Origin: Tortispora ganteri
Taxonomy: Eukaryota
Direction of reading: 5' to 3'
Assembly: GCA_003707115.1 (NCBI GenBank)
Contig: PPNB01000013.1
Span: 1-64,000, forward strand
Length of the DNA stretch: 64,000 nucleotides
In this document: one piece after another, positions 15,213 to 41,494 of the stretch
Layout: each line of letters begins with the position of its first letter
Numbering within the stretch: position 1 is the stretch's first letter
The notes under the pieces: generated by a model
What the model saw: only the letters and a program-made list of their open reading frames with translations
Told to the model about the DNA's origin: nothing
Database searches by the model: none
Made by a program: the position numbers and the translations under genes

Positions 15213-17579
15213 ATGTCGACGCATGACAAAGGCCGCGATATAGGTCACGATCTCGTGCAATCATCTGTTAGAAAGAGAGCATGTGTACTTTGTCGCAAGC
15301 GTAAGCTAAAATGTGACTCAGAACGGCCTGCGTGTGGGACTTGCAGTCGCTTGGGTCACTCTTGTGAATACGATAACGCGGTAAAGACGTCCGGCCCCAA
15401 GAAGGGCTATGTTAAAATGCTCGAACAACGTCTTGCAATGATCGAATCAAAATTAGAAGAATACCAAGGAAAATCAAACAAGAAGCCAGAATCTTTGCGC
15501 AAATCGCAAGGTTCAGCACAGTCAGCACAGGATCTCCACAGTTGGAATACCGAGATCCTAGGCGAGTACACTCAGCACACTTCAGATGTATACCAGCAAC
15601 TCGTATGCGAAAAATCCTCAGATGACAGCTGTGAAGGACAAGCACAAGCGCAGAAAGTGCCTACTTGGAGCGAGAGTGGCGTCTATGAATCACAGTTCCA
15701 TAGATCTGGTATCTCTACAAACCCTGTTAATATGCGAATTGATATTTTATCACCACCAGATCTGTCGGTTCCAAATGCTGATATTGCTTTACGTTTAGAA
15801 AACCAGTTTTTTGCAAATGTGTATAAGCAATTTCCATTTGTTGATCGTCAGGAGTTCTATACAAAGAAACCCGATGGATATTCACCTATACCACTATACT
15901 ATCGTTATGCACTTTGGGCTGTTTCTGCATCAGGAATGCCAGAATACACCCATTTACTTGAAGTTCTTTACATGAACGCCAAAAAACTTATGCTGAAGGC
16001 GGAATTTATGCACAATGGTCATTTATATTTTAGCAACTATTACGTGGCTGCTCTATGCTTCCTCGCCCGAATAGATTTCCAAGTAGGACGCTTCTCTTTT
16101 GCTTGGAATTACGGTGGCGATGCTATTAAAGTGTCTGTGGCTCGAGATGCATTTAGAATGAAGCTTATTAATTTTGAAAAAGCTTCAGTGCAGGAGAAAC
16201 GAGATGAGGAGTTTTCTGTGCGAGTCTTTTGGATTTCGTACATAGTCGAACGAACCTCGTGCCTTGCTACTACTTGGCCCACAAGTCTGGATGACGACAA
16301 AATTACAACACGACTGCCTTTCACAGATAAATATTTTGAAGATTATACTCCGCAACATGTGATATATCTGTCAGATATTGAGAACTTGAACAATTTGGAT
16401 AAAATAGAGCAAGATAACGGAGTAAGTTGGATTATCATCTCTCTTTCTCAGTACAAGAAAATCAGTGAATTTGCGGAAAAATCACTTGAATTATATATGG
16501 ACTCTAAAAGCAGGTACTGGGATGAGTTTGAAAAACTAGTCAACCTTCATACTAAGCTTATGCTTATTCCATCGGATCTGTTTCGCCACGAGACAGACAG
16601 TATTGCTGTGCACAGTGCTCGAACTATTTTTCAAGTGGGGCTCATAATGTTGTATAGAGATGCGTACTTGAAGGCACGAACAACCAGCGAAATGAATCCT
16701 GAGCAGAAAGAAGTATACAGAACTCGGTATCTGCGCGCAGCAGGGGAAGCAGCCGACATTTTTAGAAGCATGCAACATATAGAGTTGCATAAGTACTCAC
16801 CTGACGTTGCATTTAATCTATATATTGTGGCGAAAGTTTTTAAGGCAGAGCTGAAGCGAACTAGGATCGAACCAGGAGAAAAGAAGTTCTTACAGGTTAA
16901 TTACAATTATCTCCTTAACATGATCCGAGGGTTTCCTAAGAGCTACTCACTAATCAAGTTTCTCATTCCTGATTTCAAAAACGGGTTTGCACGAAATAAC
17001 CGAAGCAAAAGTGAAAATACCGAGAGTCAGACTGATGCCAATATTTCTATGCAGGCATCGATGCCGAGCGTTGACGCACAGCCGGTTCCATGCTCCACCC
17101 TTACTGGGACACACAGCGGAGTGTCTTTGGAGCAATACAATGAGCATCCGACGACGCTTGGTGTAGATGCAGGGATGAATTTAGGACAACCAAATGAAGG
17201 TACTCTTTCTATCCAGGGAAATGCGGGACCAGAGCCGGACTCTCATATACCAATTTATAGCCCGTTGGATGGGAGTACATCTAATGTCACAGATACATCT
17301 CACACGGCTTCTGACAGATCTGCGGCCTCGTTTTCGAACAGCTCTTACGAGTTACAGGCAGAATTCCCTATTTGGTGGGGACCTGACGCGCAACCGCATT
17401 CAATGCAGGTACGACAACCAGTTGCAGCTGATTCTAGTAGCACGATGTTCCCAGTTGAAGAGATGGCGGATATCATGTCGGAGATCATGCTCGGTACGGG
17501 TGAATGGGGTCCATCTAGTATTCAAGAAGGCAACATGCTGCGTCCAGACCAATTGTATATGATCCGCAGAGGTTTATAA
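15213..17579 (+). CDS. Zn(II)2Cys6 transcription factor with fungal-specific middle domain
   Basis: ACVLCRKRKLKCDSERPACGTCSRLGHSC cluster, coiled coil, and RVFWISYIVER...WPTSL motif. Confidence 0.93.
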   Translation: MSTHDKGRDIGHDLVQSSVRKRACVLCRKRKLKCDSERPACGTCSRLGHSCEYDNAVKTSGPKKGYVKMLEQRLAMIESKLEEYQGKSNKKPESLRKSQGSAQSAQDLHSWNTEILGEYTQHTSDVYQQLVCEKSSDDSCEGQAQAQKVPTWSESGVYESQFHRSGISTNPVNMRIDILSPPDLSVPNADIALRLENQFFANVYKQFPFVDRQEFYTKKPDGYSPIPLYYRYALWAVSASGMPEYTHLLEVLYMNAKKLMLKAEFMHNGHLYFSNYYVAALCFLARIDFQVGRFSFAWNYGGDAIKVSVARDAFRMKLINFEKASVQEKRDEEFSVRVFWISYIVERTSCLATTWPTSLDDDKITTRLPFTDKYFEDYTPQHVIYLSDIENLNNLDKIEQDNGVSWIIISLSQYKKISEFAEKSLELYMDSKSRYWDEFEKLVNLHTKLMLIPSDLFRHETDSIAVHSARTIFQVGLIMLYRDAYLKARTTSEMNPEQKEVYRTRYLRAAGEAADIFRSMQHIELHKYSPDVAFNLYIVAKVFKAELKRTRIEPGEKKFLQVNYNYLLNMIRGFPKSYSLIKFLIPDFKNGFARNNRSKSENTESQTDANISMQASMPSVDAQPVPCSTLTGTHSGVSLEQYNEHPTTLGVDAGMNLGQPNEGTLSIQGNAGPEPDSHIPIYSPLDGSTSNVTDTSHTASDRSAASFSNSSYELQAEFPIWWGPDAQPHSMQVRQPVAADSSSTMFPVEEMADIMSEIMLGTGEWGPSSIQEGNMLRPDQLYMIRRGL

Positions 17580-18816: not shown

Positions 18817-19707
18817 CTATATAACTCCACCCTTGACCTTTTCACATGCGACTTGCTCAAATTTTCCATTCATGAACCTCGAGTGTTCCACTATCCAACC
18901 TTGATCCGCCTTCTTGTAATGCACTATATCTTGACTCAAACTGCTCTGATTGCTCTCATTCCGTTTGTGACCATGTAGCTCAGATGTTTGTGGAGAACAA
19001 TACTCTATCTCGTAAGATCTCTCGGATATTGGAGTCATAATGTGAAATGGTTGCGGTGTGTCCAGCTCGGAGCTGTCCAGGTCAAAATCAAAATATTCAG
19101 GAACCGCGTTGATCTCTTCCAGAAGAAAATCCGCTTCTAACGCCTCATCTTCATAATCATTAAAAATACCGGGATCGTTCACATAGATGTCGTCATAATT
19201 GAATACTAGATCTTGCTGTAACTCACCAGGCGGTGATAATGCATTAGAGTCCACTGGAAAGGCATGGTCTTCGATCTCACTACACAGATCTTGCGTTAGG
19301 TCTGGAGTCACCAGTTCTGATACGCTCGAAACCGTCTCATTTTCGCTTTGTGCGCTCTGTGTAAACGAGAATCTACTGCTTGTGCCTGAAGCCGCAGCGG
19401 GTGCAGAAAGATTGCTAGATCGGGAGGGTGTTTCTACAGTCAGTTTGTCGTCAATGCCTAGTATACCTAAACCGACAGGTGGAACACTTCCAGTGCCTTT
19501 GTTTCTTTCAGAAACTGTACCCCATTCGTGAGTACGAGTACCAATAATAGCGCCTGCACACCGTAAATCGTCAGCAGTAGTGGGGCTTAGATTCGGCATG
19601 CTTTGCTTTCGGCGCGGTTTAGAGTGGAAGAGCCAAGAAAACGACGATTTGGATGAGATATCAGCCACACATATCTCGTCGTCTTTCTTTTTAAACATTT
19701 TCATCAT
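18817..19707 (-). CDS. Hypothetical protein, acidic and Ser-rich
   Basis: 296-codon ORF that fills the gap, with TATA-like sequence upstream. No family recognised. Confidence 0.7.
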   Translation of the reverse strand: MMKMFKKKDDEICVADISSKSSFSWLFHSKPRRKQSMPNLSPTTADDLRCAGAIIGTRTHEWGTVSERNKGTGSVPPVGLGILGIDDKLTVETPSRSSNLSAPAAASGTSSRFSFTQSAQSENETVSSVSELVTPDLTQDLCSEIEDHAFPVDSNALSPPGELQQDLVFNYDDIYVNDPGIFNDYEDEALEADFLLEEINAVPEYFDFDLDSSELDTPQPFHIMTPISERSYEIEYCSPQTSELHGHKRNESNQSSLSQDIVHYKKADQGWIVEHSRFMNGKFEQVACEKVKGGVI

Positions 19708-22339: not shown

Positions 22340-25300
22340 ACATTGCTGACATCGTCAAGTGCACTGCGTGGTCCAAATCTCCTTGACTTACTTGGCCGCT
22401 CTAGTGGCTGCACCTCATACTTTCTCCTTTGCGGAGTCAATCCGCTGGACTCGCTTTCATCCATGACAGTATTCCTCAGGATCTCTTCGATACCGTGAGT
22501 TTGACGTTCTAAAGTACTTCGCAGATCCTCCTGCTGACTAACGTGAGCTTTGGTTTGCTCAGAAAATTCCGCCTCCTCAGCTGACAGTCGTTCATAATGC
22601 GTATCAATAGCGTCTTTGAGCTCATGCACAGTATCACTATCGATAATATTCAAACCTTCCCATTGATTAGTTCTTTCCCTGGCGATGTGTTGCAAGTGTT
22701 CAATCCTTTTTTGTGCCAGAGAGTTTTCTGCCTGGACATTCTTTATCGGATCTTTCAACGCTAGAAGCGAATTGACAGCCAACTTACACCCTGCATTCAA
22801 ATTATCTCTATGCAGACCCGCTATTCCTGAGCACGTATTAGAAAGTTGTTTTTCCAAATGAATTCGCATATCTCGTGCCTGATTTAAGGTGCTCTCCTTG
22901 CCAAGTTCCAGGCCTGCTACAGCCGATTCACAAACATTTGTTGATTCATTGAAACTATTGCAGGTATGTTCCAAGTCGTTTCCAATATTCTTGATTAAGC
23001 CATCTAAGCGTTTCGTATGTGTTGAAGTTAATGTTTCCAATATATTAGCTATTTGAGTCATAGCAGTTTGCCTGTCCATTTCTGCTCGAATGCCTTCGTT
23101 TTGAATCGCATATGCAATATCAACGGAAGCCGTTTCCATAACACTAATAGTTTCCCTGCTCGATGAAATGTACTTTCGTATTTCTTTCATTTCGTCATCT
23201 TGCTTTGTATAATAATTTTCAAGATTTGCAAGCGTTTCTTTCATAATAGATGCCAACTCATCAAAATGTCCATTAACAGTATTTGAGAAGCAAGCATCCA
23301 GGGCAAAGATTTCTTGTTCTATTAATGGAATGGCATCTGAGAGGTCGTCAAATAAAGTTGACAACCTTTCAGCCATTTTTTGGAAAAAAGCATCCAAACC
23401 ATCGACCATATCCAATGTTTTTTCATTAAGACCAGCATCTTTTTCCTTCTGGCTTTCCCAAGCTTCATTAAATGTGGCAATGAACTTTTTCAGTGACGCA
23501 TCTACAAACGCTAGCTTATTTTTTTGTTGTTCAAGGATCCCTGAAAGTTTACCCGGAATTTGTGACGTAAAAGAATTGTTAAGGTCCGTGTAGCGTTTGA
23601 GCGATATCAGGAGCCGTTCATTTAATCCTAAAACTTGTGTCCTGCTTTCCAGCCACATTGCTTTATTATTCGAATTGGCTAAATTTCTTCGTTCCAAGGC
23701 ATCCTGCAAGTGTTCTATATCAACAGACATAGTCTCGATGCACTTTGCCTGTTTCTCAGCAATGGAACCCAGTTCTCCTTCATTATTAGCTTGTGCAAGG
23801 CGCAAGTCTATCTCTTTCTTCAGCTGTGCTTCTAGTTTTTCAATACTGGCTTCCAAATTGCTCACAGTGTGGTTGCATTTTTGATGTTCCTCCAATATTG
23901 TTTGGAGACGCTTTTGTGTATCTGAAAGTTGATCGGAGTTTTCTTGATTATGCTTTCTCGATGAAGCTAGCTGTCCTTCTAAAAGGGTGATTTTCATTTG
24001 TTGTTCTTCGATAGCCTGCGTTTTTCGTTCATTGTCTGATAGAAGCATGTCATAGCTTTGCTGAGATAAATACACGCCATTCTTCTGTCGCGTGGCAGAG
24101 AGATCGCCCTTAAGCTGCTCTATTTCTAGAATAAGTTTCTTGATCAAGGTTTTCTTTGAAAATGAGTGATTCATTTGTGGCTTGTTCTTAATGTCCTTTG
24201 CTCGGCTGGCGTAGTCCAAAGTAGATATTGTTTCTTCCATATTACAGGCCGCAGGACTTATAGTAGCAATTATACACGTTTGAGTGCGGCCACCCAGGGA
24301 GTCTTGGAGAATTCTAGTAAGTTTTGATTCTCTATATGGTACATGGGCGGATTTAGCAACCAGTGCGTTTATCACCCGCCCAAGGGTCAACAGAGACTGG
24401 TTGATCATACCAGCCTCTCTAGCTCGTTTGTTTTCAGCTCCGCTGCTTTTGATGTTTTCAGAGCCAGCCAAGTCGACTATATTAAGTTTGCCTACCCGAA
24501 CGCTTTCCTCAGATGTGTTTATTGGATCCTTCAGAACAACAGTGACAGTAAAAATGGTGTGAGATCGAGAAGAAACGTCATTCATTTTAGTTGCTGCAAC
24601 TTGCCGGCGTTGAGCACCATTCTGCAAAAGCTTTAATCCGTCAACGGCGCTTCTAATATATATTTCCTCAGCACCCTGGATTACTGTGGATTTTTTAGCA
24701 GGGTCATCATACAACCTGAGCTTTTGGTCTGTAGAGTCAGTGAGCAAGTCCTTAAGTTCTTCATTATACAATTCGACGTATGAACACTTCACGAGGTAAT
24801 CTGGGTCATCATCAGAATCGTCCGAGGAAGGAAGCCTGGAAAAGAGATCGAAAAGTGCTCTGGGTGCAATACCAGAGTTATCAGATAAGTACATTTCGTT
24901 GAGATCGCCGGCCATTGTGTGGGTTTTTCCAGTTCCAGTTTGACCATAAGCAAATATGGTACAATTGTATCCAGTGAGAACTTCACCAATCATAGAGCTT
25001 ACAGCGGTATCATAAACTGTCATTTGGTCTGCATCAGCGCCAAATACATTGTCCACCGCATATATTTTATGCGTTGATCCAGTCTGAACTGCTAGTTCTT
25101 TTCCTTGATTCAAGAATTCTCCACTAGTGGTTATTATCACGGGTGACTGTTCTGCTATTTCTTTGCTGTTTCTTCCTCTGCATCGTACGGAAACATGAAT
25201 ATTCGTTGCTTGCAGTCTTTCCTCGATATCTGACATTGAAGATTTCGGACGTGTCCTTACTGGTCGCGAAGATCTGACCGGGGCGCTAGTTCTGCCGATT

Positions 25301-25383
25301 GCTCTCGAGACCCCAACACTGGTTTTGCTGGCGCTAGCACTAGCTGGCCGATGAGAAGACCTAGTAGTACGTGAAGGTGCCAT
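22330..25383 (-). CDS. Kinesin-5 (BimC/Kip1/Cin8 family)
   Basis: AYGQTGTGKT, SSRSH, VDLAGSE, HVPYRESKLT, coiled stalk and BimC box SGLTPQRRKY. ATG at 25383. Confidence 0.95.
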   Translation of the reverse strand: MAPSRTTRSSHRPASASASKTSVGVSRAIGRTSAPVRSSRPVRTRPKSSMSDIEERLQATNIHVSVRCRGRNSKEIAEQSPVIITTSGEFLNQGKELAVQTGSTHKIYAVDNVFGADADQMTVYDTAVSSMIGEVLTGYNCTIFAYGQTGTGKTHTMAGDLNEMYLSDNSGIAPRALFDLFSRLPSSDDSDDDPDYLVKCSYVELYNEELKDLLTDSTDQKLRLYDDPAKKSTVIQGAEEIYIRSAVDGLKLLQNGAQRRQVAATKMNDVSSRSHTIFTVTVVLKDPINTSEESVRVGKLNIVDLAGSENIKSSGAENKRAREAGMINQSLLTLGRVINALVAKSAHVPYRESKLTRILQDSLGGRTQTCIIATISPAACNMEETISTLDYASRAKDIKNKPQMNHSFSKKTLIKKLILEIEQLKGDLSATRQKNGVYLSQQSYDMLLSDNERKTQAIEEQQMKITLLEGQLASSRKHNQENSDQLSDTQKRLQTILEEHQKCNHTVSNLEASIEKLEAQLKKEIDLRLAQANNEGELGSIAEKQAKCIETMSVDIEHLQDALERRNLANSNNKAMWLESRTQVLGLNERLLISLKRYTDLNNSFTSQIPGKLSGILEQQKNKLAFVDASLKKFIATFNEAWESQKEKDAGLNEKTLDMVDGLDAFFQKMAERLSTLFDDLSDAIPLIEQEIFALDACFSNTVNGHFDELASIMKETLANLENYYTKQDDEMKEIRKYISSSRETISVMETASVDIAYAIQNEGIRAEMDRQTAMTQIANILETLTSTHTKRLDGLIKNIGNDLEHTCNSFNESTNVCESAVAGLELGKESTLNQARDMRIHLEKQLSNTCSGIAGLHRDNLNAGCKLAVNSLLALKDPIKNVQAENSLAQKRIEHLQHIARERTNQWEGLNIIDSDTVHELKDAIDTHYERLSAEEAEFSEQTKAHVSQQEDLRSTLERQTHGIEEILRNTVMDESESSGLTPQRRKYEVQPLERPSKSRRFGPRSALDDVSNVYN

Positions 25384-25737
25384 GTATGTGAATTTATTCA
25401 CGCAATATAGAGATTCCTGCTGCGTGACGTCGTGCAATCAATTGTTATTGTGGATAAACAAAACGGGTGTTGTGTGTGTATACTCTCAGTGATACGGTGC
25501 TACTATTGGACCAGAGGTTACCCTACCTTTACTTTTTTTATCCCGTCAAGACGTCAACACATAATGTTGTCTTTTGGCACAATAATTACTGCTAAAAGTT
25601 GTTTTCTGTCCTAATGTTATACGTTTTTGTATGAATACTTTTACTTTCAATGTCGGGCAGTTTTGGAATCTGAGATTACGCGTTTCCGCCCGGCACCTGT
25701 ACAGCTATATCACTAGTCGCGTCGCCAGCGCCGCTCA

Positions 25738-26919
25738 TCAGATCAACTTTTCAATTGGCACTCTTGCAAGCAGGATAGATTCCGCGGTCTGTTGTATCTT
25801 CTTGCAGACGTCCCCAATTGAGTGGTAGTTAGGATCATCTGGGTTGTTGCGTGCCTCAATCTTAGCCGAACAGGCTAGAAAAATACCACTGACACCTTGC
25901 ATAGAGTTGATTCTGTTTTGTAGACTCACGGCTGCGCCCTTACGAAGCTTCACAGTGCGCTTGAACATTTTCGGGTTGCGAAATATTAGTTCAAGGCTAG
26001 CAATTGCCATAACTTGCAAAGTAGCGCAAAACACGAACAATGATTTGTCTTTGATGAGGGTTAAGTACATTAAACAATCTGGTGCGTGTTTTAGCGCATC
26101 ACAAACCATCTCAGAGTTGCAGTTAAGAGCGTTTTGAAGCATATCGCTCTTGGTGAATTCGGAAATGTCATTTTGCTTAGTATGCTTAGTCCATATCTCG
26201 CGAGGCCAAAATACTCTTCCCTCTCGTAGGTCTTCGAGGTAATCTTTAATGATATTGGTCTTCTGCAAAAGCTTACCCATCGAGTCAACAAGAACCGAGT
26301 GATCCCTGATTACAGGATTAATCATTCCGGTATCTAACATGAATTCTGTGAGGTCTATACCGACAACCACAGCAGCCCAGTAGCAGTAATCGTCGTACTG
26401 TGCTACTGTTTTGAATCCGTTACCGTTGAGCTGCTTATCTTGGCAGTATTTGGCCATTCCTTCTCCCATCTTCTTGCAATTGTTTTGAATCAGTATCTGA
26501 TAGGTTCTTTTCAGCTTCTTGTACTCTCTCAAGATACAGTCAAATTCAACCAAAACTAAACGGTGATTTTCTAGCGGCCCGTTTCCGTCAAAGTGATATT
26601 CGTCGCGATCCAAATAAGTGTAGAACTCTTTGAGCATGGGTACCTTCACTTCGTTGGGTATTGTCATATCGTCTTCGATCGTGTCCAAAGCTCGCAACAC
26701 AAGATAAAAAATCATGAAGGGTTTTCGCAATGCTGGGTTCATATCTGCAATGATCCTTGTAAATGACCGCGATGCTAATTTAAGCAACCTATAACATTCT
26801 TGCACGTCTTTTGATTCAGCCTGCAACTTCCAGGAATGTAATTTCTTGTGGTATAGCATGTACCGGATCGCCGCGTGCAGCTCAAGCGGATGCATCATCA
26901 GTTCACCAACAATGTTCAT
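25738..26919 (-). CDS. Squalene-synthase-like paralogue B (393 aa, no C-terminal membrane anchor, altered motifs)
   Basis: SRSF, LRALDTIEDD, QKTNIIKDYLED, FCATLQVMA and VKLRK. Ends at TGA-TGA before the transmembrane helix. Confidence 0.9.
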   Translation of the reverse strand: MNIVGELMMHPLELHAAIRYMLYHKKLHSWKLQAESKDVQECYRLLKLASRSFTRIIADMNPALRKPFMIFYLVLRALDTIEDDMTIPNEVKVPMLKEFYTYLDRDEYHFDGNGPLENHRLVLVEFDCILREYKKLKRTYQILIQNNCKKMGEGMAKYCQDKQLNGNGFKTVAQYDDYCYWAAVVVGIDLTEFMLDTGMINPVIRDHSVLVDSMGKLLQKTNIIKDYLEDLREGRVFWPREIWTKHTKQNDISEFTKSDMLQNALNCNSEMVCDALKHAPDCLMYLTLIKDKSLFVFCATLQVMAIASLELIFRNPKMFKRTVKLRKGAAVSLQNRINSMQGVSGIFLACSAKIEARNNPDDPNYHSIGDVCKKIQQTAESILLARVPIEKLI

Positions 26920-28281
26920 CTTAGATGGATATAAGGCACTAATAGGATTCTTCGAATATCAAATTACAATTGGATGGCAAGTGAATGTACTAACTGGGGT
27001 CAAGAGCGTTTTAAATTGACTAGTCTTATACAGCTACGGTTTAAATTAAAGTTGTCAGATCGTTTGCTTAAAAACCCAGAATGCCGACTAAATTAGAAAT
27101 TAGTGTGAACTAATGACGGCTCGAAACTAGAACCTTTTTTTTTTCCGACGTGGTTATGAAGATTCGTTCATTTATATACCACTTTCATATCATACCGAAT
27201 TACTGCAGAGTGAGATTCGCCAACGAATGATTGATAGTCCTTTCTGCTCGAAATCTGCGAATCACTTGGCAACATATTGTCCTCTTTTGCTAGTAGATAT
27301 ATTCGCTCAATTGGCCTCTATCAAAGCTTATCAAATTGCTTGATAAGGTAATCATGGCACATGGGCTAATCACAGACTACTGCCAATATTTTTCAGAGGC
27401 TTTAACTCTAATCTCCAAGGCATCATTGGCTAGTATGTGTGAAATGCTATAAGCTGCCAACAGTGCCAAGGCTCAGTCAAGAGATACTAAATATCTCCAG
27501 ATCAGTCTAAGGTGTTTATTAAGGCGTGGCAACACTCAAAGTATAATGGCAATGAGTCAATTGATGCAGCAATGTAACGAAGTTTCAGCGGAGCATGTGA
27601 ACCGTTTATTGAATGATGTAATGTGCCTGACCAGTAACATGCATCTAAAGTGACAAAGCGCAGAGAAGAGTATCCCTCTTAACCGACAGGGTGCCTACTG
27701 CTTTTTTGTAGTAGAGAGCGATCGCACTAATGTGCGACTTTAAAGTTTTGTCTTTAGGTAATAACGCAGATTTCCGGTTCGCACTAAATATAAAGTTTAG
27801 CAGCCAACTTACTGGGATAATGTGTGCATCTTTTATCAGTACAGTGTCTTCTAAATGGTTGGAATGCCATGCTTTTTTTCAGTCAGTTGATTCTAGATTT
27901 CGTTCTAGATCACAAATGCCAAATGTGATAAGAGTAGAGTTATGAGGCTCAGATGAGGCATACTTCTTGTTCAATCTAGTTTCTGAATAGATATTTTTTC
28001 TTTTCCTCAGGCCAAAGGTTTGTATATGAGTTACAGAGTATGAACTCCACTATTGGAGCTTGTCCTAAATAGATGTGTGTTGCGATTTCTTTGATATATA
28101 ACCTCAAAAACCTTCAGTCTACATATCTGCTAAATTGAAATGGCGCTAACGATTTACAGTCAAAGGAATAGTCAAGCATACGCCAAATCTTTCAACGTTT
28201 CTGTCATTAAAGTTTTAATTGTAACTCTTGCAAAAAACCTTCTAAGACCTATGCAAGAAGTGGAAAGTTAGCAACTCTTGC

Positions 28282-30399
28282 TCATGATTCAGAAGCGCTG
28301 TCATCGGATACCTTTGAGCTACTAGGAGCTTCGAAAGCATCTGAGGTGACAGTAGTAGGAGCTGATCCAACTAATGTTGGGATGATTCTCTTTTTCTTTC
28401 TTTCGACGTCCTGTTCTTCAGCCGAACGCTTGGCCGGTGCAGTATGTAGAGCACGGGGACTTGGTGGAAATAGTGGGACTTGCGAATACGGGCCATTGGC
28501 CATCACAGACATAGGCAGTCCAAAATGAGGTGTTCCGGGAGGCGAGAGTCCCTGACTAGCTTCTCTCGAATACATGCTCGCTGAAGATATTACTGGAGAA
28601 GGGACACTTGTGATGGTGGGTGTCAGACTGCCAACAGAGTCTGAGTCCTGTAGTGTTAAAGGGGTATTGCTCGGAGCGCCCACAGGTGTAGCCAATGACG
28701 GGATAGGAGAGCATTGAGTAGTGCCCGGTTTTGAAAGGTTTTGTGTGGACATAGCAGGAGGTGGAGGAATAGTAATAGTATCTTCTGAGTAACGCTCGCC
28801 AATTTCTCCTGGTTCGAAAGTCACAGCGGAACAGAATCCGTCATTGGAAGAGATTAGCAGAGTGTTTCCATCAGGCGACCATGTCAAATCAGTAAAAGCA
28901 GCATAGTGAAGGTTGGATATAGAGCACAGAGGAGTTGTCTGCTGAGTATCATATACTAAGACTGAATCTTGTGTAGCGACAGCAAATATAAGTCTATAAG
29001 GGAGGTCAAAAGCCGGGGGAGCCGTGCTTTTGAATTCGCTGTTTTGGTCTGCTGTAGAGGCATATTTCTCCTTCGCTGATTCTGCTGTGGTGGAATCGCG
29101 TTGATTGGTATTTATGGAGGCTTTCTCAGTAGGTAAGATCTCGGATTCGCGAAGCTTGTATAATATAGGGTTGCACTTTACAGCGACTGCAGGTTCTTTG
29201 AAACCTGGTAGATGCGCGACGGGAGGACGATTTAGTCCACTTCTAGTGTAAATGTAAACGGTGTTAGTCACAATATCTTCGGAGTCTTTATCGGAAGCTG
29301 AGTGATAGCGAAACTGTCCTGCTGGAGTGAGAAGCAGGCTTCCATCGACAGTGAAAGTAAGACGCCGAAAGAAGGAGGTCATAGTTTCGCTATGGTATAG
29401 AAACGAACTCTTTTGTTTGTTGACTTCGAGCGGGCGAACGGCGGGAAGCGGAAGCGCTGCCATAGTTGGGGACTGGGATGGCGATCTTTTGACAGAAGAG
29501 GCTGAGCCGAAAGATGAGTGTCGAGAATGAGAGGTTCTGTATGTAGGCGGGTTCATGGTGGAGTTTGGAGTCGACGGGGCAGTAAGCTGTGAAGGGACAG
29601 ATTTCATGGGTACTGAGGATGGCGAAGAAACAGTTTGCGGTATTGAGGGATCTGCAATAGCTTCTGAAGTGGTAGACGAAGAAACCGGGGCAGGGTGTTG
29701 CGGAGAGGCCATTGTGGCTGCTGCGAGTGCCGGGGAGGTTGCGGCAATTTTCTTAAAGGGCAGGTCAGCCTTTGTAATTTTATGATAGGGAGAGAAAGTG
29801 AATTGTCCATCCTTTGACTTGAGGGTGTATATGTGTACGCTTCGGTCGGCGCTCTGAGTCGCTATATACTCGTTGAACGGATCCCAGGCTACACCCTGGA
29901 CGTAGTGATTATGTTCTGCGATTTGGCGGACACACATTCCAGTGACGGCAGAGTATATGCGGGAGACATTGTCCATTGATCCAGCAACAAAATAGAGACT
30001 ATCTGGAGACCATGCTATGTCGTATACTTCTGAAACTGACATCCTGCAGAGGAGCTTTGTCTTCCATGACTCGCGGTCGTCCCATTCGGCACCAAATTCA
30101 CGCGATTGAGTCTCAGAAGGTGCCCAAACGATGACATTTCCGTCGTCGCCGCCTGAGGCGAGCATCTCACCTTTAGGATCAAACCGTACGACATTCACAG
30201 ACTGGGTGTGCTTTGCGAGCGTGGCAAGGTAGGAAATCTCTGGACGGTCTGGACCGCGACGGAGTGACCATAGACGCACGTTGTTGTCACCGCCTGCAGT
30301 TGCGAAGCGGCCCTTGTTGTGCGCACCGGGCTGAAAATGTACAGAATATATCGGCTGGTTATCAGAATGCCAATGAATTGTTAGAGCTTGCGCTTTCAT
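28282..30399 (-). CDS. CAC2: Chromatin assembly factor 1 subunit B (WD40)
   Basis: MKAQALTIHWH start (ATG 30399), ATAGGDNNVRLW, FFRRLTF and C-terminal KKKRIIPTLV B-domain. Confidence 0.93.
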   Translation of the reverse strand: MKAQALTIHWHSDNQPIYSVHFQPGAHNKGRFATAGGDNNVRLWSLRRGPDRPEISYLATLAKHTQSVNVVRFDPKGEMLASGGDDGNVIVWAPSETQSREFGAEWDDRESWKTKLLCRMSVSEVYDIAWSPDSLYFVAGSMDNVSRIYSAVTGMCVRQIAEHNHYVQGVAWDPFNEYIATQSADRSVHIYTLKSKDGQFTFSPYHKITKADLPFKKIAATSPALAAATMASPQHPAPVSSSTTSEAIADPSIPQTVSSPSSVPMKSVPSQLTAPSTPNSTMNPPTYRTSHSRHSSFGSASSVKRSPSQSPTMAALPLPAVRPLEVNKQKSSFLYHSETMTSFFRRLTFTVDGSLLLTPAGQFRYHSASDKDSEDIVTNTVYIYTRSGLNRPPVAHLPGFKEPAVAVKCNPILYKLRESEILPTEKASINTNQRDSTTAESAKEKYASTADQNSEFKSTAPPAFDLPYRLIFAVATQDSVLVYDTQQTTPLCSISNLHYAAFTDLTWSPDGNTLLISSNDGFCSAVTFEPGEIGERYSEDTITIPPPPAMSTQNLSKPGTTQCSPIPSLATPVGAPSNTPLTLQDSDSVGSLTPTITSVPSPVISSASMYSREASQGLSPPGTPHFGLPMSVMANGPYSQVPLFPPSPRALHTAPAKRSAEEQDVERKKKRIIPTLVGSAPTTVTSDAFEAPSSSKVSDDSASES

Positions 30400-30577
30400 A
30401 GTTTTAACGACAAAAGCGGAGGCTGCAAAGAGTGTCAGAGCGTGACCAGGGAAGGGAGGGGGGACCTGGGTCAGCAAAAGGAGAAATATTTAAGGTTTAG
30501 CAGACAGACCCGGTTAACCACACCACACTGCACCTGTTTTTCTTCGTCTTTTCTTTTTACCGTCTTTCTCAATTTAA

Positions 30578-30788
30578 TGACTTCTTGGTATTCCGTAGCC
30601 GGCCAGGTACATTGCCTTTGGTAAAACCATTGCGTAGCTTGTAGCCGCACTCTCTGTCAAATCCGTGCTGTCTCCAGGTAGACTTCGCGTGCCGTTTGAA
30701 GTGCCAGATTAACGATTCCTCATAGAGCAGTCTAAGCGCCCTCTAGGGGAGCTGTACTGTTCCCCTGGGCCGGTGTGCTCTTACAATC
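30578..30788 (+). ncRNA. Candidate box H/ACA RNA, family unassigned
   Basis: Intergenic block, more GC-rich than its flanks, with ANANNA (AGATTA 30706-30711), a 3' hairpin (AGAGCA/TGCTCT lower stem, AGGGGAGC/GTTCCCCT upper stem) and ACA at 30783-30785. Confidence 0.45.
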
Positions 30789-30822
30789 ACTTAAATCTTG
30801 TGTGTATAAATTTCATTTGCTG

Positions 30823-32223
30823 CTAATTAATCATCTTAAAAATATCTCCCCAGACAAGGTCAAAACGTGCACCCATCATCCATGCCGCCAGAGTCAATGA
30901 GCCGAAAATGAGTAAGAAACTCAGTCCGAACGCCGCGTATAAGTTAACCACCTCAGACTTACTCGGTTCTTCTTGGTTCTTCGCGTACGGTCCGCGTTTC
31001 TTCAACGCCTGAATCTGTTGGTAGGACATGCCTGCCGTCGACACTACTTTCCCTTCCACCGGCACCTGCGAAGGGAATATCGATTCCACTGTCTGTTGAA
31101 GTTTTCCGTACGCGATTTCTATGGACAAATAGTTTGGATCATCAGAGGTGATACGTTCGTGAATTCGTTGCGCGTACTCGAGAAAAATCTCGCACACGCT
31201 GCGTACTGATCGCGCGCGGTAAATCAGACTCACGGCTGTGCCTTTGCGAATCTTCACATTCCGCTTGAACATCTCTGGGTTGCGGAATATAAGCTCGAGT
31301 GTAGCAATAGCCATAACCTGCGGAATGGCGCAGAAGTCAAACAGTGACTGGTCTTTGACGCAAGTCAGGTATAGTAGACAGTCGGGCGCATGCCTCAACG
31401 CATCGCACACTAGTTCCGAGTTGCAGTAAAGAGCATTTTGAATCATTTCAGGTTTAGTGAACTCAGAAATGTCATTATTCTTTGTGTACTTAGCCCATAT
31501 ATCACTCGGCCAGAATACCCGCCCGTCTTCTAAGTCTTCGCGATAGTCTCTAATGATGTTGGTCTTCTGCAGGAACTTCCCCATAGAGTCCACAAGTATA
31601 GGGTGTTCCTTAATAGCAGGGTTGATAACGTTAGCTTCCAGCATAATCTCAGTCAGACAGACACCGACAATAGCAGCAACATAATAGCAATATTCATCGT
31701 ACTGTGCTACTGTTTTGATGCCTTCACTGTTGAACTGTTTGTCCTCGCAGTACTTGGCCATGCCCTCGCCCATCTTCTGACAATTGTTCTGGATCAGTAC
31801 CTGGTACGGTTTCTTTAGCTTCTTATACTCTCGCAATATGTAGTTAAACTCTACAAGCACCAGTCGGTCCTTCTCGTCCGGACCGTTTCCATCAAAGTGG
31901 TATTCGTCGCGATCCAGGTACGTATAGAACTCATTGAGTATCGGCACCTTCACTTCATTGGGTATTGTCATGTCGTCTTCAATTGTATCCAAGGCGCGCA
32001 ATACAAGATAGAAAATCATGATCACTTTCCTCAATTCAGGGTTCAAGTCTACAATGACGCGTACAAAAGAGCGAGAAGTAAGTTTTAGTAGCTTGTAGCA
32101 CATCTGCACGTCATTTGACTCAGTTTCCAGATCCCAGGGGTGCAATCGCTCATGATATAGCTTGTACTGAATCACATCTTTTAATTCATGAGGATGTAGC
32201 AAGAGCTGGCCCACAGTGTTCAT
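30823..32223 (-). CDS. ERG9: Squalene synthase (farnesyl-diphosphate farnesyltransferase), full-length paralogue A
   Basis: TSRSF, DTIEDD, FLQKTNIIRDY, FCAIPQVMAIATL, VKIRK and C-terminal TM helix. Some non-canonical residues, so orthology is unconfirmed. Confidence 0.8.
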   Translation of the reverse strand: MNTVGQLLLHPHELKDVIQYKLYHERLHPWDLETESNDVQMCYKLLKLTSRSFVRVIVDLNPELRKVIMIFYLVLRALDTIEDDMTIPNEVKVPILNEFYTYLDRDEYHFDGNGPDEKDRLVLVEFNYILREYKKLKKPYQVLIQNNCQKMGEGMAKYCEDKQFNSEGIKTVAQYDEYCYYVAAIVGVCLTEIMLEANVINPAIKEHPILVDSMGKFLQKTNIIRDYREDLEDGRVFWPSDIWAKYTKNNDISEFTKPEMIQNALYCNSELVCDALRHAPDCLLYLTCVKDQSLFDFCAIPQVMAIATLELIFRNPEMFKRNVKIRKGTAVSLIYRARSVRSVCEIFLEYAQRIHERITSDDPNYLSIEIAYGKLQQTVESIFPSQVPVEGKVVSTAGMSYQQIQALKKRGPYAKNQEEPSKSEVVNLYAAFGLSFLLIFGSLTLAAWMMGARFDLVWGDIFKMIN

Positions 32224-32856
32224 CGTTATGATGTCTATTAGGATGTTTCAGCCTTAGTCAAGTTCAGACTGGCGTCGAGGACAGGGATTTCATAGAAGGG
32301 TCCGGGGTTAAATGACAGCCCTAATAACCCTATATGAATGTGTGGGGATGGCAGACGCGGCATTTCGTGCTGAGTAATTGATACATGTGGGCACCGAGAT
32401 CAGCGCGATAAGCCCTGTGTTTGTAGGACAAAGTGCTGTTTGATTGTTAAGCATACATGATAAAAAAATGGTGGAAAGCGCCTTATGCAATCAGACCTGC
32501 TGTTGACCTAAGATACTCTCTCATATGGTGAATAATGCTAATATATGATTTAGATTTACAGATTTTAGCGATCGTCATCATTGTATATCAGCGAGCAATT
32601 GCTCATCAGTCATACTTACTAAACATTCTTTGAAGTAAAGGAACAATTTTCTAATTCTGGTAATGATTTAAGTTTGCGCATACACCTAACTGGATAAGCA
32701 AGCGCTTTCAGTATAGAACAAGCGTTATAATTGGCTGTAAAAGAAGTTTATCAGTCGGCCAGTGAGATTTTCTATCGCATTAGGCGATATACGATAATTC
32801 TACTGGGTAACCCACCCCCCGCATTTCATATAAAGGACACAAGGGAAGATTAGTGA

Positions 32857-38332: not shown

Positions 38333-39658
38333 ATGGCCTCGAAAGACAGGTCGCCTTTGGATATTCTGGCTTTAAAAAGCTCAGCATTGAAATCTAAACT
38401 ACAACAGAGACAGAACGATGCAGAATTGTATGAATACCGCGGCTCTCCTATGCGATTATCGACCGTGTCTACCGCCAGTTTGGAATCTCGATCTACTCGG
38501 CGCACTAGCCTCGAATCTAGTGTTTCATCGGTCAGCACACTGTTGCGAGACGACACTATACCATTATATCACGAAAACGAATCAGAACCAAATAACTTGA
38601 CTAATCAGCTCAACGTGTTCCAATTCCCTCCTCCGCGCAGCAGTGTGGATTCTACAAGGACAGAGACTATGCCCGCTTCAGACGCGCCGTTGCAAGTACC
38701 ATCCACATCGGTCATGAACCACCATTCTCGCAGTAGTTCGTTTCAGAGCGCATCTAATGTCAATTTTTCAAGGCCACTAAGCCGCCAAATTACACCTGAC
38801 ACTATAACACATTCCAGGGAGAACAGTTTGGACCCTCCTCATGACGATTCTCATCGATTTCCGAAGAGAACTTCATCCCTCTTCGCAGGTATAGACAATC
38901 CCGGGTTTACTGATAGTTATGCAGATAAAGAGTATACGCATAGGTCAGGCAGCTTGTCGCCACCGCCGCGACGTCTTCACGTCTCCAAGCAGCCTTCATT
39001 GTCAGAATTGACTAAATTGGAGCTGTCGAATATAGGTTCATCGCATACGCGACTAGAATTGTCATATTCCGATTATGTCAAAGCTGGCACGGATTTGTTT
39101 GACCGCGGTGACCTGCGAGACGCTGCTTATCATTTTAGATGCGCTGCTGAAAGGTCTAGTATTGGCGGATCAGTGCTGTATGGACTATGTCTTCAAAATG
39201 GATGGGGCGTTAAGAAGGACATGAATGAAGCATTCAAGTGGGTTCAGAATGCTGTACAACTGTGCGAAACTGGTGTTGATATGTCTGAACAATTCAGTTT
39301 GACGCCGCGATTTGTGCAGAAAACAGCTAGCGCTAAATCTCGCACCTACAAGACGCTGGCGTTGAGCGAGCTCGCTAACATGTACAGGAACGGCTGGGGT
39401 TGCAACATTGATGAAGAAGCTGCTATAAAGATATTGATACAGAGCGGCAGCGAGGGTGATGCACAGTCTTATGCGCAAGCTGCGGACATATATGCTGTCA
39501 GCACGCCTAGACGAAAGAAAGACCTAAAGAAGGCCGCGCAGCTGTACCGTCTAGCGGAGTCTATGGGCCACAAAACAGTAGGGACTAGTTGGATCTACAA
39601 AGAAAAGTACATGGACGGCAAGGGGGAACACAAGCATGGGAAATTTTTTCGGTTCTAA
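38333..39658 (+). CDS. Sel1-repeat protein, Dsf2-like
   Basis: Disordered N-terminus, LYGLCLQNGWG, ELANMYRNGWG and KKDLKKAAQLYRLAE...VGTSWIYKEKY. Confidence 0.75.
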   Translation: MASKDRSPLDILALKSSALKSKLQQRQNDAELYEYRGSPMRLSTVSTASLESRSTRRTSLESSVSSVSTLLRDDTIPLYHENESEPNNLTNQLNVFQFPPPRSSVDSTRTETMPASDAPLQVPSTSVMNHHSRSSSFQSASNVNFSRPLSRQITPDTITHSRENSLDPPHDDSHRFPKRTSSLFAGIDNPGFTDSYADKEYTHRSGSLSPPPRRLHVSKQPSLSELTKLELSNIGSSHTRLELSYSDYVKAGTDLFDRGDLRDAAYHFRCAAERSSIGGSVLYGLCLQNGWGVKKDMNEAFKWVQNAVQLCETGVDMSEQFSLTPRFVQKTASAKSRTYKTLALSELANMYRNGWGCNIDEEAAIKILIQSGSEGDAQSYAQAADIYAVSTPRRKKDLKKAAQLYRLAESMGHKTVGTSWIYKEKYMDGKGEHKHGKFFRF

Positions 39659-40546: not shown

Positions 40547-41494
40547 TTAGTACATAGGTGTTTTGTGTATAATGGACAGCTGAGGACCAAGAGGTTCTGC
40601 TGATATTGGTAAAACCATACCAACTGGGTTGCAGTCTACTTTGCGGGGGTCAATGACTTGGACGCCTTTGACAGTGGCAGCGTAGACTTTGCCATTGACG
40701 AATACAAAATCAGTAACAATTCCGCTAAAAGCAATCTTCTGTAATTTGGTTTGTTCAACTAAGTACAGATCAGAGAGGCCTTCTATGCCTACTAATAGTC
40801 CTAGTGGTGTTGAAACAATCTTGAATACGTCTCTGCACTGATCAAGATCAATAGTGTACTGTTCACACCCTTGTATGTTCCAGACTCTTAAAAGAGATTC
40901 GCCACCGCCTGAGACTATATTACCATCCCTATTCAATGCAAGTGCTGAGACAAAGTCACGGCTACCTAAACAGTAGGATTCAATGTTGTGTGCGTCGGGG
41001 TAGCGTGATACCCGTATATGCTCGTCTCTGTCTCCTGAAAGTACGTATTTTACATTTCCTTGTTCGATTACCAACAGCGACAACACCATACTGACATGTC
41101 CCAGTAAAGGTTGTTGTGCGGGCTCGTTTTTCTCAGCATTGGATGTCAATAATAATGAGTTTCTTGAATCATCCGGGTCCAGCGATATATCGAAAACGTC
41201 GCCCGACTTGTCGCCAACAATCACCTTATTTTCGCCTAGAACCGCACAAAGAGCCGATGGACGTTTCGCAAACTTCCGCGTCATTAGCAAGTTCAGCTTC
41301 TCGTCGTACACAAGTAGTTCTTTTGAGTCGTCCGTTGTGCATACAATTTTGTTATTGTGCACTATTATATGTGTTATACACGACTCAGCCTCGACTTCTA
41401 TGCGTTTGTCAGTCTGCAGGTTAACTAAACATAACTTCCTTGCAGCACTAACCACTAAATTGTTCTCATCAGAGGCAATTCGATGTACAGCCAT
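40547..41494 (-). CDS. TRM82: tRNA m7G46 methyltransferase non-catalytic WD40 subunit
   Basis: KRPSAL, GDKSGDV, LLGHVSMV and SGDRDEHIRVSRYP. Confidence 0.9.
   Translation of the reverse strand: MAVHRIASDENNLVVSAARKLCLVNLQTDKRIEVEAESCITHIIVHNNKIVCTTDDSKELLVYDEKLNLLMTRKFAKRPSALCAVLGENKVIVGDKSGDVFDISLDPDDSRNSLLLTSNAEKNEPAQQPLLGHVSMVLSLLVIEQGNVKYVLSGDRDEHIRVSRYPDAHNIESYCLGSRDFVSALALNRDGNIVSGGGESLLRVWNIQGCEQYTIDLDQCRDVFKIVSTPLGLLVGIEGLSDLYLVEQTKLQKIAFSGIVTDFVFVNGKVYAATVKGVQVIDPRKVDCNPVGMVLPISAEPLGPQLSIIHKTPMY

What the first reader, a model, noticed from the sequence alone, without database searches (positions are those of the whole stretch)
25738..32223. Pair of divergent squalene-synthase-like genes: candidate split or neofunctionalised triterpene system
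Seen: two co-oriented SQS-family ORFs about 4 kb apart, separated by CAC2. Their DTIEDD block is nearly identical in protein but differs at many synonymous sites, suggesting both are maintained by selection. Copy B (393 aa) lacks the C-terminal membrane anchor and changes conserved motifs: NIIRD to NIIKD, FCAIPQ to FCATLQ, YCHYVAGLVG to YCYWAAVVVG, EKDR to ENHR. Known: yeasts normally have one ER-anchored ERG9. Botryococcus SSL-1/2/3 are duplicated SQS-like enzymes that split the two half-reactions and make presqualene diphosphate, bisfarnesyl ether or botryococcene. Inference: B may make or convert a non-squalene C30 product, alone or with A. It could instead be an inhibitor-resistant copy.
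Basis: partly seen in the sequence, partly recalled or inferred. Interest (0 to 1): 0.85.

Follow-up and report, generated by a model that had tools for sequence, protein, structure and literature searches.

The report
Anchorless second squalene synthase in yeast
A budding yeast carries, next to its normal membrane-bound squalene synthase, an old and still selected second copy that has lost the membrane anchor and changed several almost never-changed pocket residues, so it probably still works but in a different place and perhaps in a different way.

Summary
Two squalene-synthase (SQS/ERG9) genes lie on the minus strand, A at 30823-32223 (466 aa) and B at 25738-26919 (393 aa), with a CAC2-like gene between them.

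- **Divergence:** A and B are 69% identical over 390 aa without a gap. Synonymous sites are close to saturated.
- **Organism:** A is 95% identical to Tortispora caseinolytica ERG9.
- **Origin:** B branches beside that ERG9 pair on a branch about nine times longer. It is a lineage-specific duplicate.
- **Selection:** B is under relaxed but clear purifying selection.
- **Truncation:** B ends just after the end of the catalytic domain. It has no anchor and no relic of one downstream.
- **Catalytic residues:** B keeps every residue the papers I read name as catalytic, including Tyr171.
- **Unusual changes:** B has R218K, V175A, V69F, I291T and P292L. Pro292 is present in 144 of 147 diverse SQS.
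- **Gaps:** No B-like protein was found in 5.8 billion proteins. There is no biosynthetic cluster around B, and no RNA data.

My best reading is a soluble, still catalytic SQS with a remodelled pocket. An SSL-like new product remains possible but is not shown.

The parts
30823..32223 (-). Copy A: ordinary ERG9-type squalene synthase, 466 aa, with fungal C-terminal extension and anchor
   Evidence: ORF. PF00494. TIGR01559 at 442.2 bits. 440 of 465 residues identical to T. caseinolytica CANCADRAFT_96812.
30874..30942 (-). Hydrophobic C-terminal anchor of A (aa 428-450, LYAAFGLSFLLIFGSLTLAAWMM)
   Evidence: Kyte-Doolittle 19-residue maximum of 1.93 at aa 425/428. Translation checked. B has no counterpart.
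28282..30399 (-). Intervening CAC2-like gene (CAF-1 p60 WD40 subunit), 705 aa. It is context only, not part of the enzyme pair.
   Evidence: PF24105, E 1.6e-108.
26920..28281 (.). 1,362-bp gene-free stretch upstream of B, taken to be its promoter region. It has no similarity to A's upstream region.
   Evidence: No ORF above 71 aa. No relic of neighbouring genes and no DNA match to A's flanks. No Rfam or tRNA hit.
25738..26919 (-). Copy B: anchorless, fast-evolving SQS paralog, 393 aa. It ends 10 residues after the position aligned to the end of the crystallised fungal catalytic domain.
   Evidence: ORF. PF00494. TIGR01559 at 386.9 bits. Aligns to A. flavus SQS 7wgh residues 9-384, E 9.9e-97. 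No difference in the X1/X2 contigs.
26353..26379 (-). B aa 181-189, WAAVVVGID. This is the helix that follows the retained catalytic Tyr (B Tyr178 = human Tyr171). Changes: Y174W, V175A, G177V, L178V, G182D.
   Evidence: Numbering. Frequencies in 150 representatives. Translation checked.
26233..26256 (-). B aa 222-229, NIIKDYLE. The second Asp-rich motif is kept, and the Arg before it (human Arg218) is replaced by Lys.
   Evidence: R in 144 of 150, K in 3 of 150. Translation checked.
26017..26046 (-). B aa 292-301, KSLFVFCATL (the Gln that follows, human Gln293, is kept). This is the second-step domain. Phe286, Phe288 and Gln293 are kept. Changes: Q283K, I291T, P292L.
   Evidence: P in 144 of 147, L in 1 of 147. 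Translation checked.
25384..25737 (.). 354 bp between B's double stop (TGA TGA) and the start of the kinesin gene. It holds no remnant of an anchor-coding part.
   Evidence: Stops in all three frames. tblastn with A gives only chance-level hits, E >= 2.

Best explanation
B is an old duplicate of this yeast lineage's ERG9 that selection has kept as a naturally soluble catalytic domain.

Mechanism (inferred):
1. Like the parent enzyme, B binds two farnesyl diphosphates through its two intact DxxED/Mg2+ sites and the intact flap.
2. It uses the retained Tyr171 equivalent to make presqualene diphosphate.
3. It most likely still reduces this with NADPH to squalene, because Phe288, Gln293 and the VK(I/L)RK loop are kept.

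Two things differ from A:
- Place: B has no anchor and no fungal polar C-helix. It should therefore act in the cytosol, uncoupled from the ER sterol pathway.
- Pocket: the donor-tail wall (V69F, V175A), the diphosphate-binding Arg218 (now Lys) and the presumed NADPH depression (I291T, P292L) are remodelled. Kinetics, cofactor handling or inhibitor binding should differ.

Shown: gene integrity, selection, loss of the anchor, which residues are kept and which are changed.

Inferred: activity, product and location.
For: Family membership:
- TIGR01559 equivalog at 386.9 bits against a cut-off of 286.75, covering profile positions 2-336 of 337.
- E 9.9e-97 to A. flavus SQS (7wgh) and 1.4e-71 to human SQS.

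Selection:
- pN 0.17 against pS 0.78.
- 35 of 91 four-fold sites are identical against 24.6% expected. By my arithmetic this gives dS of about 1.3 and a pairwise omega of about 0.15.
- 0 of 20,000 copies simulated with the observed 348 differences placed at random stay open. Their protein identity is 44% (maximum 49%) against 69% observed.
- There are no indels over 390 codons.
- B's changes follow the family's constraint gradient: 47% of the most variable columns are changed against 14% of the near-invariant ones.
- Between the window and the X1/X2 contigs there are 0 differences in B's 1,182 coding bases against 9 SNPs and 2 indels in the 1,716 flanking non-coding bases. Fisher p is 0.013 for SNPs and 0.004 with indels.

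Catalytic residues:
- S51, S53, F54, Y73, R77, D80, E83, D84, Y171, Q212, N215, D219, E222, D223, R228, F230, Y276, F286, F288, Q293, M295, A296, K315, R317 and K318 are all kept.
- Their roles are taken from passages of PMC4823828, PMC10378455 and PMC4106277.
- The VK(I/L)RK segment is kept, although a 40-codon window spanning it (aa 321-360) has the highest pN in the gene (0.36).

Truncation point:
- B residue 383 aligns with Phe384 of A. flavus SQS.

Precedent: olive OepSQS4 is divergent and has no transmembrane domain. Its authors state that its identity as an SQS was confirmed by expression in E. coli (passages of PMC10723762).
Against: - There is no expression evidence of any kind.
- B shows no codon bias (ENC 61).
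- B has changed 12 of 86 near-invariant columns. A and its T. caseinolytica ortholog differ from each other in 1 of 86.
- B departs at 5 of 30 core positions, more than 144 of 150 diverse representatives.
- Pro292 is changed in only 3 of 147 representatives. All three are strongly deviant proteins with 7, 9 and 14 core departures, so P292L has no precedent in an otherwise ordinary SQS.
- Pro292 lies in the depression proposed to bind NADPH (PMC4106277 passage). The second half-reaction may therefore be impaired or changed.
- The annotated T. caseinolytica proteins in the database include no B-like protein of 30-688 aa. B may be dispensable in a close relative.
- A soluble SQS may not feed sterol synthesis. 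Review passages say the C-terminal region matters for channelling (PMC9399743).
Confidence: 0.4

Rival explanations
1. SSL-like neofunctionalisation. B carries out only one half-reaction, or turns FPP or presqualene diphosphate into a C30 product other than squalene. It could do this alone or with A supplying or consuming the intermediate.
For: - The near-invariant positions that changed lie on the walls of the reaction chamber and in the presumed NADPH depression: V69F, V175A, I291T, P292L, plus R218K. The metal and diphosphate machinery is intact. That is the pattern expected when a terpene enzyme changes product rather than dies.
- The few other proteins with Pro292 or Arg218 changed often share V175A and lack an anchor: P0271 has R218K and P292L, P0191 has V175A, R218I and P292R, P0249 has V175A and R218T.
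- Botryococcus SSL-1 and SSL-3 appear to lack the anchor (methods passage of PMC4823828).
- B's branch is about nine times longer than A's.
Against: - Every residue named for either half-reaction is kept, including Tyr171, Phe288, Gln293 and the NADPH loop.
- The other Pro292-changed proteins have also changed Gln293, and two of the three have lost Lys315 as well. B has lost neither.
- B's acceleration is spread over the whole protein and is not focused on the pocket.
- No tailoring genes lie nearby.
- B's residues could not be compared with SSL-1/2/3, because those sequences and Supplementary Fig. 18 of PMC4823828 were not available to me.
Confidence: 0.25
2. Non-catalytic derivative. B is a soluble protein that binds FPP, presqualene diphosphate or squalene, or binds a partner protein, and acts as a sensor, buffer or regulator.
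For: - Constraint is relaxed: by my rough split of dN and dS along the tree, omega is about 0.27 on B's branch against about 0.03 on A's.
- Changes occur at near-invariant positions.
- The anchor is lost.
- Precedent: of the two Arabidopsis SQS genes, only SQS1 showed activity (passage of PMC10723762).
Against: Both DxxED motifs, Tyr171 and the NADPH loop are all intact after a divergence of about 0.63 changes per site. That is hard to explain if catalysis were no longer selected.
Confidence: 0.15
3. Inhibitor-insensitive spare. B makes squalene but binds zaragozic-acid-type natural inhibitors less well, which protects the yeast from inhibitor-producing fungi in its habitat.
For: - Zaragozic acid A places one side chain in the donor-tail site, which includes Val69, and the other in the depression formed by Phe54, Leu211, Pro292, Met295 and Ala296 (passages of PMC4106277). 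B has V69F and P292L.
- A second SQS acting as a resistant target is listed for the squalestatin S1 cluster of Phoma sp. (Table 1 of PMC10320164).
Against: - No biosynthetic cluster surrounds B.
- The residues that hold the inhibitor's acid core (flap, Tyr73, Arg77) are unchanged.
- An anchorless enzyme may serve sterol synthesis poorly.
- Nothing is known here about the organism's exposure to such inhibitors.
Confidence: 0.1
4. Unexpressed or dying gene copy.
For: - B shows no codon bias (ENC 61).
- No ortholog is annotated in T. caseinolytica.
Against: - The frame is open with no indel.
- 0 of 20,000 neutral simulations stay open.
- pN 0.17 is far below pS 0.78.
- There are no strain differences in the coding sequence, against 11 in the flanking non-coding DNA.
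Confidence: 0.05

Closest known systems
Fungal squalene synthase ERG9 (for example A. flavus SQS, PDB 7wgh; EC 2.5.1.21)
   Same: - Same fold and family: E 9.9e-97 to 7wgh and above the TIGR01559 equivalog cut-off.
- Both DxxED motifs, the flap, Tyr171, Phe288, Gln293 and the NADPH loop are kept.
- By descent B is a duplicate of this lineage's ERG9 (support 100/100).
   Different: - B has no polar C-helix, no transmembrane helix and no C-terminal tail.
- Changes: R218K, V175A, V69F, I291T, P292L, Y174W, G177V, G182D.
- Its branch is about nine times longer than A's.
Botryococcus braunii SSL-1, SSL-2, SSL-3 and LOS (squalene-synthase-like enzymes)
   Same: - They are duplicates of SQS kept beside a normal SQS.
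- SSL-1 and SSL-3 apparently lack the anchor.
- SSL-1 makes presqualene diphosphate. SSL-2 and SSL-3 convert it. This comes from passages of PMC4823828.
   Different: - B arose independently inside a yeast ERG9 clade.
- No loss of half-reaction residues is visible in B.
- No product is known for B.
- I could not align B with the SSL sequences.
Olive OepSQS4
   Same: A divergent paralog (46-48% identical to its siblings) without a transmembrane domain. Its authors report its SQS identity confirmed by expression in E. coli (passages of PMC10723762).
   Different: It is a plant protein with a predicted plastid transit peptide. B has no N-terminal extension, and its N-terminus aligns with A from residue 1.
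Arabidopsis SQS2
   Same: A second SQS gene similar to the first. Only SQS1 showed activity (passage of PMC10723762; the original paper, Busquets 2008, was not read).
   Different: SQS2 is ER-located with its anchor. B has lost the anchor. Which residue is responsible in SQS2 is recalled only and was not checked.
Resistant-target SQS gene inside the squalestatin S1 cluster (Phoma sp. MF5453)
   Same: An extra SQS copy beside the housekeeping one (Table 1 of PMC10320164).
   Different: That gene sits in a polyketide cluster of a producing fungus. B sits among housekeeping genes.

Membership tests
Squalene synthase (EC 2.5.1.21; PF00494 / TIGR01559) | Match to the family profiles above their curated cut-offs | tested here: met
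   PF00494 at 126.9 bits against a cut-off of 26. TIGR01559 equivalog at 386.9 bits against 286.75, profile positions 2-336 of 337.
Squalene synthase (EC 2.5.1.21; PF00494 / TIGR01559) | Two Asp-rich DxxED motifs and the flap S-R-S-F | tested here: met
   B has DTIED (aa 79-83), DYLED (aa 226-230) and SRSF (aa 50-53).
Squalene synthase (EC 2.5.1.21; PF00494 / TIGR01559) | Catalytic Tyr171 (first half-reaction) | tested here: met
   B Tyr178 aligns with human Tyr171 (chain position 144 plus 27). Tyr is present in 149 of 149 representatives. The Trp in B sits at human Tyr174, not at Tyr171.
Squalene synthase (EC 2.5.1.21; PF00494 / TIGR01559) | Second-step domain F-x-F-C-A-I-P-Q and the V-K-I-R-K loop | tested here: inconclusive
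   Phe286, Phe288, Gln293, Lys315, Arg317 and Lys318 are kept. Ile291 is Thr (1 of 148) and Pro292 is Leu (1 of 147; Pro in 144).
Squalene synthase (EC 2.5.1.21; PF00494 / TIGR01559) | Arg218 before the second Asp-rich motif | tested here: not met
   B has Lys. Arg is present in 144 of 150 and Lys in 3 of 150. One of those, P0233, has this as its only core departure.
Squalene synthase (EC 2.5.1.21; PF00494 / TIGR01559) | Makes squalene from two FPP with NADPH | not testable with these tools
   This needs an enzyme assay.
Eukaryotic ER-anchored ERG9 | C-terminal hydrophobic membrane anchor | tested here: not met
   B ends at aa 393. A's anchor is at aa 428-450. No relic lies downstream.
Botryococcus-type SSL system | SQS duplicate that has lost one half-reaction or makes another product | not testable with these tools
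   The sequence shows no loss of residues named for either step. The product is unknown.
Botryococcus-type SSL system | Common descent with SSL-1/2/3 | tested here: not met
   B groups with the Tortispora ERG9 pair at 100/100 support, so any likeness would be convergent.
Cluster-borne resistant-target SQS | Located inside a secondary-metabolite gene cluster | tested here: not met
   35 further long ORFs across the window (all but eight nested or overlapping ones) were scanned. They gave only housekeeping families or no match. No PKS, P450, cyclase or methyltransferase was found.
Pseudogene | Broken frame or neutral evolution | tested here: not met
   The frame is open with no indel. 0 of 20,000 neutral simulations stay open. 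pN is 0.17 against pS 0.78.

The most novel reading that the evidence does not exclude
B is the first fungal counterpart of the algal SSL enzymes. It would be a soluble ERG9 derivative whose remodelled tail pocket and cofactor depression divert FPP, or presqualene diphosphate released by A, into a non-sterol C30 product or a signalling lipid in a budding yeast. Budding yeasts are thought to have one squalene synthase and almost no terpenoid secondary metabolism.
Probability: 0.2. Interest if true: 0.8.

Novelty: new variant of a known kind. Interest (0 to 1): 0.5.

Why it matters
Squalene synthase is the committed, normally single-copy and ER-anchored step of sterol synthesis in yeasts, and it is a drug target.

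- **A natural experiment:** B is a naturally soluble second copy, kept by selection, with changes at Pro292, Arg218 and Val175. These positions are almost never changed in 150 diverse homologs. B therefore shows what these positions and the anchor are for.
- **If B still makes squalene:** it is a ready-made cytosolic enzyme for squalene or triterpene engineering. It would also test whether ER channelling is needed.
- **If B makes something else:** it would extend SSL-type chemistry from one green alga to fungi.

Either way, the test is cheap. B can be expressed as it is, without truncation.

Tried and rejected
**A slip of my own.** From memory I first took the Trp in YCYW as the replacement of catalytic Tyr171, and I wrote that in my reading.
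- Counting the human chain in the alignment (offset +27) shows that Tyr171 is the first Tyr of the motif. B keeps it, and the Trp sits at Tyr174.
- I checked the count against D80/D84, L183/F187, Q212-D223, Y276, F288/P292/M295/A296 and V314-K318 as quoted.
- The 'dead first step' idea was dropped.

**Searches that found nothing:**
- Expression: no RNA holder was listed. The one read-laying run used DNA contigs only.
- Whole genome: none is held for this window. I could not look for further SQS copies or for genes elsewhere.
- Relics of a larger duplicated segment or of a lost anchor: none.
- Recent gene conversion: none. pS is 0.62-0.99 in all 18 sliding windows.
- Introns that might add an anchor exon: the downstream region has stops in all frames, and the only splice-like motif is one GTGAGT inside B's coding sequence.
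- Sterol-response motif TCGTATA (recalled from memory): 9 in the window against 6.4 expected. One lies 565 bp upstream of A and none upstream of B. This is not significant.
- Rfam and tRNA scans of the locus: nothing.
- Codon bias: uninformative. ENC in the window is mostly 50-61.
- B-like proteins: the best hit is the T. caseinolytica ortholog of A at 68%, and the next is 47%. A region-only search of aa 165-240 gave 2 hits from 9 candidates, both with the ordinary motif. The search of shorter proteins found none. The best representative is 45% identical.

**Timing of the duplication.** The tree puts B outside A plus T. caseinolytica (support 95/83). The AU test does not reject A and B as sisters (p 0.157), so the timing stays open.

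**Papers:**
- Not held, so recalled only: Gu et al. 1998 and Niehaus et al. 2011.
- Linscott 2016, Busquets 2008 and Bonsch 2016 were seen only as cited by others.
- Prior reports: 'Tortispora' with 'squalene' gave 0 papers. 'squalene synthase', 'paralog', 'Saccharomycotina' and 'ERG9' together gave 4 papers, none on such a duplicate judging by title and abstract.

**Earlier findings of this scan:** none on this genome or sequence. Two notes on giant-virus SQS do not bear on this case.

Full report
**What is there**

On the minus strand lie, in the order of transcription:
- ORF A at 32223-30823 (466 aa);
- a 705-aa WD40 gene at 30399-28282;
- a 1,362-bp gene-free stretch;
- ORF B at 26919-25738 (393 aa);
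- after another 354 bp, a kinesin gene.

The WD40 gene matches the CAF1B/HIR1 propeller (E 1.6e-108), which fits CAC2. A and B both match PF00494. Both also pass the squalene-synthase equivalog TIGR01559, at 442.2 and 386.9 bits against a cut-off of 286.75. They share 270 of 390 residues with no gap. Two small corrections are given in the observation check.

**Organism and origin**

A is 95% identical (440 of 465) to the protein CANCADRAFT_96812 of Tortispora caseinolytica. Neither A nor B is in the protein collection as an exact sequence. I infer that the window comes from a close relative of that budding yeast.

In a maximum-likelihood tree of 36 SQS, A, its T. caseinolytica ortholog and B form one clade with 100/100 support. 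B lies outside the other two (support 95/83). B's branch is 0.63 changes per site, against about 0.07 for A since the split. An AU test does not reject A and B as sisters (p 0.157). The duplication therefore arose within this lineage, but whether it predates the split from T. caseinolytica stays open.

Only the coding part for aa 1-390 is duplicated. The flanks show no similarity and no relic of neighbouring genes or of an anchor-coding part.

**Is B alive?**

- Synonymous sites are close to saturation: pS 0.78 against pN 0.17. Of 91 four-fold sites, 35 are identical, against 24.6% expected from composition. By my own Jukes-Cantor arithmetic this gives dS of about 1.3 and a pairwise omega of about 0.15.
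- I split dN by the branch lengths and split dS evenly. This gives roughly 0.27 for B's branch and 0.03 for A's. It is a rough inference.
- pS is high in all 18 sliding windows, so there has been no recent gene conversion.
- When the observed 348 nucleotide differences are placed at random, 0 of 20,000 copies keep an open frame. Protein identity falls to 44% (maximum 49%), against 69% observed.
- B's changes follow the family's constraint gradient. 31 of 66 of the most variable columns are changed, against 12 of 86 near-invariant ones.
- Contigs of two DNA runs (X1 and X2, possibly one data set filed twice) differ from the window at 14 bases and 2 indels within 7 kb. None of these falls in B's 1,182 coding bases. 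Two (both synonymous) fall in A. Three (two synonymous) fall in CAC2. Eleven fall in the 1,716 non-coding bases flanking B. Fisher p is 0.013 for SNPs and 0.004 with indels.

B is therefore under relaxed but real purifying selection.

There is no evidence on expression. B shows no codon bias (ENC 61), but bias is weak in all genes of the window.

**What is kept**

I numbered B against human SQS from the alignment (chain position plus 27). The numbering reproduces D80/D84, L183/F187, Q212-D223, Y276, F288/P292/M295/A296 and V314-K318 as quoted in the papers.

B keeps the flap S51/S53/F54, Y73, R77, both DxxED motifs, Y171, Q212, N215, R228, F230, Y276, F286, F288, Q293, M295, A296, K315, R317 and K318. 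These are the residues that the passages I read give as key for catalysis, diphosphate binding, the second step and NADPH (PMC4823828; PMC10378455; PMC4106277).

From memory I had first taken B's Trp as replacing Tyr171. The count shows that it replaces Tyr174 and that Tyr171 is intact.

**What is lost or changed**

B ends 10 residues after the position aligned with Phe384 of A. flavus SQS. [quoted passage not shown] B is therefore almost exactly the minimal soluble catalytic domain. It lacks the fungal polar helix, the transmembrane helix (A aa 428-450) and the tail.

Among 84 columns that are at least 95% conserved in 113 mostly fungal SQS, B departs at 17, A at 7 and the T. caseinolytica ortholog at 6. 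Seven of B's departures fall in columns where A departs too.

Against 150 representatives that are under 50% identical to each other, B's residues at human positions are as follows:

| Human position | Usual residue (count) | B's residue (count) |
|---|---|---|
| P292 | Pro, 144 of 147 | Leu, 1 of 147 |
| I291 | Ile, 122 of 148 | Thr, 1 of 148 |
| R218 | Arg, 144 of 150 | Lys, 3 of 150 |
| V175 | Val, 144 of 149 | Ala, 5 of 149 |
| V69 | Val 69 / Ile 59 of 133 | Phe, 1 of 133 |
| Y174 | Tyr, 122 of 149 | Trp, 0 of 149 |
| G177 | Gly, 148 of 149 | Val, 0 of 149 (A has Ala) |
| G182 | Gly, 145 of 149 | Asp, 0 of 149 (A has Cys) |
| L61 | Leu, 128 of 134 | Met, 0 of 134 |

At 30 core positions B departs at 5. 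Of the 150 representatives, 113 depart at none and only 6 depart at more than B does.

According to passages of PMC4106277:
- Val69 and Val175 line the donor-FPP tail site.
- Pro292, with Phe54, Leu211, Met295 and Ala296, forms the depression proposed for NADPH.
- One side chain of zaragozic acid A also lies in that depression.

**Reading**

The ionisation and diphosphate machinery, the catalytic Tyr and the NADPH loop have survived about 0.63 changes per site. This includes a stretch (aa 321-360) where pN reaches 0.36. That argues for continued catalysis and probably continued use of NADPH. My first choice is therefore a soluble squalene synthase acting away from the ER with a remodelled pocket (0.4).

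The weak point of this reading is P292L/I291T. The only three representatives with Pro292 changed are strongly deviant proteins, and they have also changed Gln293; two of them have lost Lys315 as well. No ordinary SQS shows this change. An altered second step or product, the SSL-like reading, therefore keeps 0.25.

The other readings are a non-catalytic binder (0.15), an inhibitor-insensitive spare (0.1) and a silent copy (0.05).

The papers I read give precedents for three outcomes:
- active: the anchorless olive OepSQS4;
- inactive: Arabidopsis SQS2;
- changed chemistry: Botryococcus SSL enzymes and LOS.

**Context**

Of the 43 ORFs of 150 aa or more, I scanned 38: A, B and CAC2 and 35 others. 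All of the 35 others gave housekeeping families or no match. There is no P450, cyclase, methyltransferase or polyketide synthase, so B is not part of a visible gene cluster. I left out five ORFs nested in or overlapping longer ones.

**Novelty**

- No B-like protein turned up among 5.8 billion clustered proteins, in the near-length, region-only or shorter searches.
- None turned up among 1.84 billion representatives, where the best is 45% identical.
- Full-text searches found no paper linking Tortispora and squalene.
- None of the 4 papers found with 'squalene synthase', 'paralog', 'Saccharomycotina' and 'ERG9' is about such a duplicate, judging by title and abstract.

I file B as a new variant of a known kind. 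Its function is open and cheaply testable.

Noticed in passing
P0137 (Candida boidinii, 388 aa), P0249 (Podila horticola, 397 aa), P0261 (Pleurotus djamor, 752 aa), unnamed P0271 and P0191: A few other fungi and unnamed records hold strongly deviant SQS-like proteins. They change the same positions as B (V175A, R218x, P292x, the NADPH depression), and several lack a C-terminal anchor. C. boidinii is another budding yeast. Some may be mispredicted genes.
   Followed up: partly
window 30823-32223 (A) and P0001: The ordinary ERG9 of this lineage is itself unusual at near-invariant positions. It has G177A (Gly in 148 of 149 representatives), F187M (Phe in 140 of 149) and W109Y. In A alone, G182 is Cys.
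   Followed up: partly
window 26920-28281: The 1,362-bp stretch upstream of B is the longest gene-free stretch I saw in the window. It has no ORF above 71 aa, no Rfam or tRNA hit, and no similarity to A's upstream region.
   Followed up: partly
window 25300-32300: The DNA contigs X1/X2 differ from the window at 14 bases and 2 single-base insertions. Eleven of these 16 lie in non-coding DNA. The window and the runs therefore seem to be different strains or assemblies of one species.
   Followed up: partly
window 60388-61464 (-): A tubulin ORF starts at profile position 71 of the Tubulin domain. Its 5' part probably lies in an upstream exon, which shows that this genome has introns.
   Followed up: no
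window 15213-17579 (+), 38333-39658 (+), 51941-53311 (-), 3840-4700 (-), 18817-19707 (-), 40547-41494 (-): These long ORFs (286-788 aa) have no Pfam family at E 1e-12 (1e-10 for 51941-53311).
   Followed up: no
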